This document shows, piece by piece, positions 51,990 through 52,490 of a stretch of DNA of 64,000 nt. Position 1 is the stretch's first letter; each line of letters opens with the position of its first letter. The notes under the pieces are model-generated. The model had not been told where the DNA came from. It worked only from the letters and a program-made list of their open reading frames with translations, and searched no databases. The stretch covers positions 32,984,001-33,048,000 of the forward strand of contig NC_043005.1 of assembly GCF_006345805.1 (NCBI RefSeq), given 5' to 3'. Source of the stretch: Octopus sinensis (taxonomy: Eukaryota). The translations under genes and the position numbers were made by a program.

Positions 51990-52490
51990 AAATACAAAAT
52001 GGGACAAGAACGCAAAACATCCAGACAGTTAGGTGATACAAAAAAGGGGACAACAAAACATCCAGATAGACGATACAAAGAAAACAAAGACGGGTCATTC
52101 GGGCTTTTCTTTCCTCAGTCGAGTTCCAGATTATCTTTGCAATTTCGGCTGGTTATACTCGAGATTGCTCCAATCTGGCCAGCCCAAAGGAAAAAACTAA
52201 GCTAAGAGCATTAGATTCCTTGGTCACGTGGGGGAGAGAAGAGAGAGAGAGAGGTATAGGCAGAGGGACAGAAGAATTTAGGAGGGTCGAGAAAAGATGA
52301 CATAGGCACAGTGAAGTGAAAAGAGGGGGGAAATGAGGAAGAAGAGAAGGCAGAGAAATGTGAGAGTGGGGGAACGAAAGAACGAAGAGGGGAATGCACC
52401 AATAAGTGTGAAAGGGCTGATAGAAAGAAAGAATAAAGTCGTACAAGATTTAGATAAATATATACTTACATATAAGAGAACAAAGTACGC
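51990..52490 (-). mobile_element. Non-coding retrozyme/PLE-like element, family 3
   Basis: 51995-52116 is repeated at 52515-52637 and 53074-53196; it carries a rearranged HHR and is bounded by (TA)n. Confidence 0.7.
52103..52202 (-). ncRNA. Candidate non-circularly permuted hammerhead, fully intact (family 3)
   Basis: GGCUGG-CCAGAUUG-GA-GCAAU-C-UCGAGU-AUAA-CCAGCC-GAAA-UUGC-AAAGA-UAAUCUGG-A-ACUCGA-CUGAGGA; predicted cut after AUC (52163/52162). Confidence 0.78.

What the first reader, a model, noticed from the sequence alone, without database searches (positions are those of the whole stretch)
52103..52202. Intact hammerhead-like RNA with a rearranged (non-circularly permuted) strand order
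Seen: on the minus strand all hammerhead core nucleotides are present (CUGAGGA, GAAA, AUC), each next to the correct helix: stem I UCGAGU/ACUCGA, stem II GGCUGG/CCAGCC, stem III GCAAU/AUUGC, plus an extra helix CCAGAUUG/UAAUCUGG. The order is II5'-P0-III5'-UH-I5'-II3'-GAAA-III3'-P0'-I3'-CUGAnGA. Established: type I/II/III hammerheads are circular permutations of I-CUGAnGA-II-GAAA-III-UH-I, and this order is none of them. Stems I and II lie side by side in the active fold, so a 4-nt crossover (AUAA) from stem I to stem II is plausible. Inference: a pseudoknotted or dimeric self-cleaving ribozyme that processes the element RNA. Natural non-circular HHR permutations have been reported, so the novelty of this exact topology must be checked.
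Basis: partly seen in the sequence, partly recalled or inferred. Interest (0 to 1): 0.92.

Follow-up and report, generated by a model that had tools for sequence, protein, structure and literature searches.

The report
Rewired hammerhead ribozyme in mobile repeats
Thousands of mobile DNA repeats in this animal genome carry the parts of a hammerhead self-cutting RNA in a strand order not found in the papers searched, with one core backbone link apparently replaced by a predicted four-way helix junction, so it likely cuts the repeat's RNA into unit pieces and may be the missing ribozyme of 'Naiad' retrotransposons.

Summary
Observation confirmed. The motif sits in a ~0.8-kb non-coding repeat (1,413 candidates in the genome). 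The same strand order occurs in three other window copies and in at least six repeat families. Across nine variants, 13 of 15 core-stem pairs show two or more Watson-Crick types, while A15.1-U16.1 and G10.1 stay fixed. It is a circular permutation of the published SGC/CSG hammerheads, opened between A9 and G10.1, a block the 2023 paper assumed unbreakable. Two further helices (P4 after A9, P5 before G10.1) are predicted to close that gap as a four-way junction. One family is the 3' end of a Naiad Penelope-like retrotransposon, a clade published as lacking canonical hammerheads. By eye, 9 of 52 published Naiad 3' ends (octopus, squid, cnidarians, ctenophore) have this order and 6 (nematodes) are type CSG. 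Cleavage is untested, and whether it acts alone or as a dimer is open. The window's own copy has lost the P4 partner strand and is probably damaged. Three look-ups of earlier scan notes found no report of this topology.

The parts
52185..52223 (-). P5 hairpin (arms 52223-52216 and 52192-52185), ending directly before G10.1; one mismatch in this copy
52179..52184 (-). Stem II 5' strand, G10.1 at 52184; not covalently joined to A9
52171..52178 (-). P0 5' strand (equivalent of the SGC stem I/II interaction helix)
   Evidence: comparison with PMC10085705
52157..52168 (-). Block S: stem III strand, U16.1 (52164), C17 (52163), stem I strand; predicted cut between 52163 and 52162
   Evidence: cut site inferred from hammerhead numbering
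52153..52156 (-). 4-nt crossover from stem I to stem II (about 3 nt in SGC ribozymes)
52139..52152 (-). Block G: stem II 3' strand, GAAA (52146-52143), stem III 3' strand
52126..52133 (-). P0 3' strand
52112..52124 (-). Stem I partner strand and CUGAGGA core (C3 52118, A9 52112)
52106..52111 (-). P4 3' strand; its partner, normally just 5' of P5, is deleted in this copy (junction 52224/52223)
   Evidence: (26 of 28 copies keep the partner)
51972..52637 (-). F1a repeat copy: internally deleted unit (about 526 nt here, 766-794 in two other copies) plus upstream partial repeat of its 3' tail, ending in (TA)n
53052..53196 (-). Second partial copy of the F1a 3' tail, part of a local 558-bp duplication
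54073..54191 (-). Same topology, family F2, with P4 and P5 (one stem II mismatch in this copy)
35740..35860 (-). Same topology, second F2 copy (G10.1 35821, H17 35796, C3 35752)
56961..57090 (-). Same topology, F4-related copy with a damaged core (G8 changed)

Best explanation
This is a hammerhead core in a new strand order, carried by Penelope-type mobile repeats, and it likely self-cleaves after the NUH triplet, with a predicted four-way junction (stem II, P5, P4, core) standing in for the normal A9-G10.1 bond. Shown: the order II-P0-S-G-P0'-I-CUGAnGA, its covariation across families, the tandem non-coding units, and the link of one family (F5) to a Naiad reverse transcriptase. Predicted: P0 and stem III form a hinged hairpin whose loop pairs with the two strands at its base (stems I and II); P4 and P5 stack end to end so that A9 (entering P4) and G10.1 (leaving P5) are held side by side. 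Inferred: the cut trims multimeric transcripts to unit length, the ends are joined to a circle, and a Penelope-type reverse transcriptase copies it past unit length into (TA)n sites. I put folding within one unit at about 60% and docking between two units at about 40%. The window's copy has lost P4 and is likely an impaired insertion.
For: Nine natural variants: 135 of 135 cells paired in stems I-III, 13 of 15 pairs with two or more Watson-Crick types, U16.1-A15.1 in 9 of 9, G10.1-C11.1 in 8 of 9 (G-U in one), all triplets NUH; 0 of 5,000 strand swaps reached this (partly by construction, since the variants were found with a pairing descriptor, although pair 16.5-15.5 was not in it and is paired in 9 of 9). 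Sequence-only alignment of 10 F1 copies: 93.3% paired, 5 of 24 pairs with double changes, slid controls 14-45%. GAAA plus CUGAnGA intact in 26/30, 29/30, 19/20, 16/20, 18/20 and 20/20 best-hit copies of F1a, F2, F3, F4, F5, F1c. P4+P5 junction in F1a 11/23, F1b 2/2, F1c 7/8, F2 21/24, F3 12/16, F4 12/23 against 18/370 shuffles. The S-G linker and interaction helix match the active SGC ribozymes (PMC10085705). Position 9/10.1 takes an extra nucleotide in Penelope hammerheads (PMC4209133) and in a viroid (PMC3705267). F5 lies downstream of decayed RT on the same strand in 2 of 7 fetched loci and matches the 3' ends of Naiad_Obim and Naiad_Ovul. Units carry an upstream repeat of their own 3' tail at about 770-880 nt.
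Against: No cleavage data. No run on record as RNA and no raw reads were offered. 5' ends of truncated copies do not pile up at the predicted cut. P4+P5 passed in 0 of 13 F5 copies and only about half of F1a and F4 copies, and swapping flanks between families passed about as often as the true pairs in several combinations, so P4 specificity is weak. Competing folds appear in the full-length MFE of several copies. No autonomous partner was found for F1-F4. The published view is that block C cannot be interrupted. The RVT_1 hit is below Pfam's cut-off (22.2 vs 29.6 bits).
Confidence: 0.72

Rival explanations
1. Same ribozyme, but obligately dimeric: the hairpin loop (blocks S and G) of one unit docks on the forked base (stem II strand, stem I strand, CUGAnGA) of another, so tandem transcripts are cut and monomer circles are spared.
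For: A rough reach budget needs 2 bp of stem III to open in F1c and 3 bp in the coral Naiad for folding in one unit. Penelope and amphibian retrozyme hammerheads act as dimers. Eckert et al. note the same geometric puzzle in some SGC RNAs.
Against: The same budget needs no opening in 5 of 6 families here. Every family keeps a bulge or loop between P0 and III, as a fold-back would need. The budget uses assumed distances, not a 3D model.
Confidence: 0.3
2. A hammerhead-derived but non-catalytic or very slow structure, kept as a recognition or packaging signal for the reverse transcriptase.
For: The A9-G10.1 bond is missing. No cut-site pile-up among 5' ends. Minimal Penelope hammerheads cleave poorly in vitro.
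Against: Catalytic nucleotides, NUH and A15.1-U16.1 are kept while almost every stem pair changes, and related Naiads carry intact-block CSG forms (by eye).
Confidence: 0.14
3. An ordinary intact SGC ribozyme: stem II is formed by the G-rich strand just after A9 (with one bulged base), and the upstream strand is a competing switch.
For: In F2 and F3 the strand after A9 can pair with the stem II 3' strand (-3.1 and -4.3 kcal/mol).
Against: It gives +1.1 in the finding's copy and -0.7 in F4, and is weaker than the upstream strand in all 6 copies scored (-5.7 to -11.2). The upstream strand starts exactly at G10.1 and does not invade GAAA. The downstream strand has its own partner in P4.
Confidence: 0.06
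4. Splicing or back-splicing joins A9 to G10.1 and restores a continuous block C.
For: F1c, F2 and F3 have AG directly before G10.1. A Penelope intron is known to end at a hammerhead helix.
Against: F1a, F1b, F4 and F5 lack AG there, and no family has GU directly after A9.
Confidence: 0.03
5. Chance arrangement of short stems.
For: The stems are only 5-8 bp.
Against: 1 full hit in 100 shuffled windows against 3 in the real one; six high-copy families; covariation.
Confidence: 0.01

Closest known systems
Type-SGC and type-CSG non-circularly permuted hammerheads (Eckert et al. 2023, PMC10085705; main text read, 2 supplement passages seen)
   Same: Same core, same short stem I-to-stem II crossover, same helix clamping the far ends of stems I and II; S, G, C in the same cyclic order.
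   Different: Block C is split: the stem II strand and its P0 arm lie 5' of block S, and A9 runs into P4. Both P0-stem III links are present. SGC was found only in metatranscriptomes and CSG in 2 metagenome sequences; the paper reports no SGC or CSG in genomes of known organisms, whereas this is a high-copy animal repeat.
Minimal type I hammerheads of Penelope-like elements (Cervera and de la Pena 2014, PMC4209133; passages read)
   Same: Near the 3' end or pLTR of Penelope-like elements; deviation at position 9/10.1; proposed role in cutting multimers into circles.
   Different: Those have the canonical order, one inserted base and a tiny palindromic stem III. Here the order is permuted, stem III has 5 bp or more, and two helices occupy the insertion site.
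Non-LTR retrozymes (Cervera and de la Pena 2020, PMC7229834, passages; Li et al. 2026, 10.64898/2026.07.22.740005, first 2 of 5 parts read)
   Same: Non-coding, low-GC, partial-tandem repeat units with one ribozyme per unit, tied to Penelope-like elements.
   Different: Defined and searched by type I hammerheads; units here are about 770-880 nt and the ribozyme is invisible to those descriptors.
Naiad Penelope-like elements (Craig et al. 2021, PMC8557442; passages and supplement searches)
   Same: Family F5 is the Naiad 3' end; (TA)n targets, 5' truncation, partial tandems.
   Different: The paper reports no canonical hammerhead and only 'HHR_core' or 'HHR_half_core' marks. F1-F4, including the finding, show no coding frame and no detectable DNA homology to the Naiad.

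Membership tests
Hammerhead ribozyme | Core CUGAnGA, GAAA, NUH | tested here: met
   Finding's copy and 8 of 9 variants fully intact; 127 of 140 best-hit copies keep GAAA and CUGAnGA.
Hammerhead ribozyme | Stems I, II, III abutting the core with A15.1-U16.1 and G10.1-C11.1, with covariation | tested here: met
Hammerhead ribozyme | A9 joined to G10.1 directly or through 1-2 inserted bases | tested here: not met
   The stem II strand lies 66-72 nt upstream of the core; P4 follows A9.
Hammerhead ribozyme | Canonical type I/II/III order; Rfam model match | tested here: not met
   0 Rfam hits in the window; order S-G-C.
Hammerhead ribozyme | Self-cleavage 3' of H17, lost in G5/G12 mutants | not testable with these tools
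   Needs a bench assay; only contigs were available.
Type-SGC hammerhead | Order S-G-C with about 3-nt I-to-II linker and I/II interaction helix | tested here: met
Type-SGC hammerhead | Intact block C (stem I strand, CUGAnGA, stem II strand contiguous) | tested here: not met
   hence not filed as SGC
Non-LTR retrozyme | Non-coding tandem or partial-tandem unit with one ribozyme per unit | tested here: met
   Upstream repeat of the 3' tail in F1a 4/22, F2 5/24, F3 3/15, F1c 4/6, F4 0/16; no protein-like frame seen.
Non-LTR retrozyme | Type I hammerhead | tested here: not met
Non-LTR retrozyme | Expressed as linear and circular unit-length RNA | not testable with these tools
   No RNA holder listed; contigs only.
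Naiad PLE (family F5) | Penelope-type RT at the end of the ORF, followed by this 3' end | tested here: met
   Decayed RT pieces upstream on the same strand in L211 and L216; 3' end matches Naiad_Obim/Ovul by eye.
Naiad PLE (family F5) | N-terminal GIY-YIG endonuclease and CxC motif | not tested
   Fetched stretches did not reach an intact N-terminus.
Naiad PLE (finding's family F1a) | Encodes or is homologous to a Naiad ORF or 3' UTR | tested here: not met
   No coding frame; blastn against coding loci hit only nested copies and TA repeats.

The most novel reading that the evidence does not exclude
A seventh natural hammerhead architecture, in which a core phosphodiester bond (A9-G10.1) is replaced by a four-way junction, is active, has persisted in Naiad retrotransposons from ctenophores and cnidarians to cephalopods, and drives about ten thousand retrozyme-like copies in this genome. 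Naiads as a clade are a reservoir of non-circularly permuted hammerheads (split-C, CSG, SGC) that standard searches miss.
Probability: 0.62. Interest if true: 0.93.

Novelty: new variant of a known kind. Interest (0 to 1): 0.88.

Why it matters
It would break a stated rule of hammerhead architecture (core blocks cannot be interrupted) and move non-circular permutations from anonymous metatranscriptome contigs into animal genomes with a named host element. It offers an answer to why Naiads, among the most abundant Penelope-like elements in invertebrates, seemed to lack the ribozyme their relatives carry. It suggests a simple route to such permutations, by tandem duplication of a CSG/SGC unit. 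All of this can be tested with RNAs of about 170 nt. A core that accepts two helices at position 9/10.1 would also be a new insertion point for engineered ribozyme switches.

Tried and rejected
Rfam scan: 0 hits. ARAGORN: 0 genes. Pfam on 10 window ORFs: 1 hit, a GIY-YIG at 57588-58070, on the opposite strand to the nearby motif and not tied to it. The RT-GIY-YIG element next to L012 and L088 is antisense to the motif in both; 2 of its 30 loci carry an F1 motif, both antisense, so it was rejected as the parent. Upstream ORF search in six families found no ORF for F1-F4. Sequencing runs: no RNA holder listed; four contig sets laid show presence only and are not used as evidence. Search for 5' truncation at the cut site: ends spread from about -60 to +150, several at +16 to +51, none at 0; inconclusive. 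One search used a misregistered structure string and is void; one search is the corrected count. The cross-family flank swap did not discriminate P4 partners. In one search the chosen F1a and F5 representatives were not parsed, so no full-length fold of an intact F1a or F5 copy was made. Two rows with a mis-parsed or chance structure (L148, window 41208) were left out of family counts. Splicing and downstream-stem-II readings were rejected as above. Literature searches; none returned a paper describing a split-C hammerhead or a permuted hammerhead in Naiads, but subscription journals are largely not held and one review (PMC3334697) was not available. Perreault 2011 (PMC3088659, passages) lists only 1-2-nt core insertions in what I saw. 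The alignments in the Eckert supplement were not read through. Published Naiad sequences were paired by eye only, not folded or aligned by tool.

Full report
1. Observation. A descriptor of the order gave 3 window hits, against 4 in 100 shuffled windows, only 1 of them with a 5-bp upstream stem II. Rfam has no match.

2. Setting. The genome has 2.72 Gb. The motif belongs to a repeat with 1,413 first-look candidates, the best 40 at 93-100% identity. Scanning the window, the loci and 400 kb of arbitrarily placed stretches gave more families with the same order: F1b-d, F2 (2,205 candidates), F3 (2,301), F4 (2,483), F5 (1,569) and a young F1c with copies 99% alike (1,146). Candidates are not copy numbers and may overlap between related families. 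F1a/F1c are about 72% alike around the motif, F2/F3/F4 are 70-81% alike in pieces, and one 43-nt match links the two groups. F1-F3 units are non-coding, end in (TA)n about 150 nt after the core, are 5'-truncated, and often carry an upstream repeat of their own tail at about 770-880 nt. This is the more-than-unit-length pattern of Penelope-like elements and retrozymes.

3. The stems are selected. In a sequence-only alignment of 10 F1 copies the four helices are 93.3% paired, with double changes at 5 of 24 pairs; slid partners give 14-45%. Across nine variants, one per subfamily, stems I-III are paired in 135 of 135 cells and 13 of 15 pairs show two or more Watson-Crick types. The two that do not are U16.1-A15.1 and G10.1-C11.1, the pairs fixed in hammerheads. 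This count is partly by construction, because a pairing descriptor found the variants. Stem II alone reads GGCUG/CAGCC, GAAGG/CCUUC, GAGCA/UGCUC and GACAC/GUGUC in the four groups.

4. What the topology is. Eckert et al. (PMC10085705) divide the hammerhead into blocks S, G and C, assume that blocks cannot be interrupted, and validate types SGC and CSG. These have a crossover of about 3 nt from stem I to stem II and a helix clamping the far ends of stems I and II. The finding has both features (P0 is that helix). It differs in that the stem II strand of block C, with its P0 arm, is moved in front of block S. It is therefore SGC or CSG circularly permuted, with the ends placed between A9 and G10.1. 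Taking the stem II strand of one CSG unit through the CUGAnGA of the next in a tandem array would give this order (inference).

5. How the gap is closed. Folding the two flanks together predicts a hairpin P5 ending at G10.1 and a helix P4 starting at A9, whose partner lies just 5' of P5. The test passed in F1a 11 of 23, F1b 2 of 2, F1c 7 of 8, F2 21 of 24, F3 12 of 16, F4 12 of 23 and F5 0 of 13 copies, against 18 of 370 shuffles; in the F2, F3 and F4 examples shown there is no unpaired base at the junction. Swapping flanks between families often passed as well, so P4 rests on position more than on specificity. If P4 and P5 stack end to end, the strand break between them puts A9 and G10.1 next to each other, as at a four-way crossover (inference). 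Penelope hammerheads conserve one inserted base at this position (PMC4209133), and a viroid hammerhead stays active with one (PMC3705267). The window's copy has lost the P4 partner by a deletion at 52224/52223; 26 of 28 scored F1a copies keep it.

6. The parent element. The RT-GIY-YIG element first met beside two copies is antisense to them and has its own type I-like motif. F5 is different: 2 of 7 fetched F5 loci carry decayed RT upstream on the same strand, and the F5 motif is the 3' end of the consensus sequences Naiad_Obim and Naiad_Ovul in the supplement of Craig et al. 2021. From this I infer that the genome is an octopus. That paper states that Naiads lack canonical hammerheads and marks 8 as 'HHR_half_core', Naiad_Ovul among them. 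I read the last 330-400 nt of 52 Naiad records by eye (two further records not seen). The split-C order is clean in 7 (Obim, Ovul, Amil, Aacu, Anas, Naiad-3_Chem, Naiad-2_Movir) and imperfect in 2 (Esco, stem II mismatch; Bfor, stem I only 2 bp). The three coral records show P4 and P5 with no unpaired base at the junction. Six nematode records (Naiad-1, -2 and -3_Nbra, Hcon, Hpol, Asuum) are complete type CSG, and two arthropod records (Naiad-4_Dst, Smim) look like SGC as far as visible. The other 35 show none of these within the stretch seen. Species behind Amil, Aacu, Anas, Movir, Hcon and Asuum are read from the labels or recalled. These pairings were not computed. For F1-F4 no autonomous partner was found; mobilisation by a Penelope-type enzyme is inferred from their insertion pattern.

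7. Mechanism. Most likely P0 and stem III fold first as a hinged hairpin, its loop pairs with the two strands at its base to make stems I and II (duplex energies -2.3 to -9.6 and -5.7 to -11.2 kcal/mol in six copies), P4/P5 hold A9 and G10.1 together, and the RNA is cut after H17. Two cuts in a tandem transcript would release a unit whose ends are held by stem III and P0, ready for ligation to a circle, the template proposed for Penelope elements and retrozymes. Stems II and III are coaxial in hammerheads, so folding in one unit needs P0 to run back along them. A rough budget with assumed distances allows this with no opened pairs in 5 of 6 families, 2 in F1c and 3 in the coral form. Docking of one unit's loop on another's base remains a strong rival. 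No cleavage evidence could be obtained: only contigs of runs guessed to be RNA were offered, and truncated copies do not end at the cut site.

8. Novelty. Eight paper searches found the 2023 permutation paper but nothing on a split block C, a junction at 9/10.1, or permuted hammerheads in Naiads; coverage of subscription journals is poor. Three look-ups of earlier scan notes found no report of it. It works like a hammerhead but fails the continuity test of every described type, so I class it as a new variant of a known kind. Interest 0.88; confidence in the full mechanism 0.72.

Noticed in passing
PMC8557442 supplement File_S5, nematode Naiad 3' ends: Six records form complete type-CSG hammerheads, a type published from only 2 metagenome sequences; where the spacer to stem III is 0-1 nt, P0 is 15-16 bp, as a fold-back would need. 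By eye only.
   Followed up: partly
PMC8557442 supplement, Naiad_Ptep, Naiad-1_Dst, Naiad-2_Dst: CUGAnGA sits in a hairpin loop with no stem II strand after it; in Ptep a local hairpin lies between stem I and GAAA. Possibly another way of splitting block C.
   Followed up: no
PMC8557442 supplement, Naiad_Mgal, Bpla, Mphi, Scon, Mmer, Naiad-1_Movir: 3' ends carry a motif that resembles a twister ribozyme (label recalled, not tested). CGi, Sglo, Olur, Tgra, Pmar, Skow, Pfla and Naiad-2_Chem share a different conserved structured motif just after the stop codon, of unknown class.
   Followed up: no
L063-L090, 3' ends: An RT-GIY-YIG Penelope family has a minimal type I hammerhead whose core has A6 replaced (CUGU.GA) in the copies seen, and about 100 nt upstream a hairpin with blocks S and G but no evident block C.
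   Followed up: no
window 57588-58070 (+) and about 58725-58770: 5'-truncated GIY-YIG endonuclease fragment (Pfam PF01541) with a Cys-rich linker, followed by a degenerate type I hammerhead-like hairpin.
   Followed up: partly
window 52660-53000 and 53215-53560 (-): Two 97-99% identical copies of a SINE-like element (label recalled; ARAGORN finds no tRNA), duplicated with the F1a tail at a 558-bp period.
   Followed up: no
window 56870-57400: Inverted arrangement of the 3' tail of the F4-related repeat around its motif, as seen in Penelope insertions (by eye).
   Followed up: no
families F3 and F4, loop between P0 and stem III: Both keep a purine-rich 5x5 loop with GAA opposite AGUA, like a loop E motif (label recalled), although their stems differ.
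   Followed up: no
run codes: The F1c unit is held in runs under six organism labels, so the family is probably shared by related species; not checked further.
   Followed up: partly
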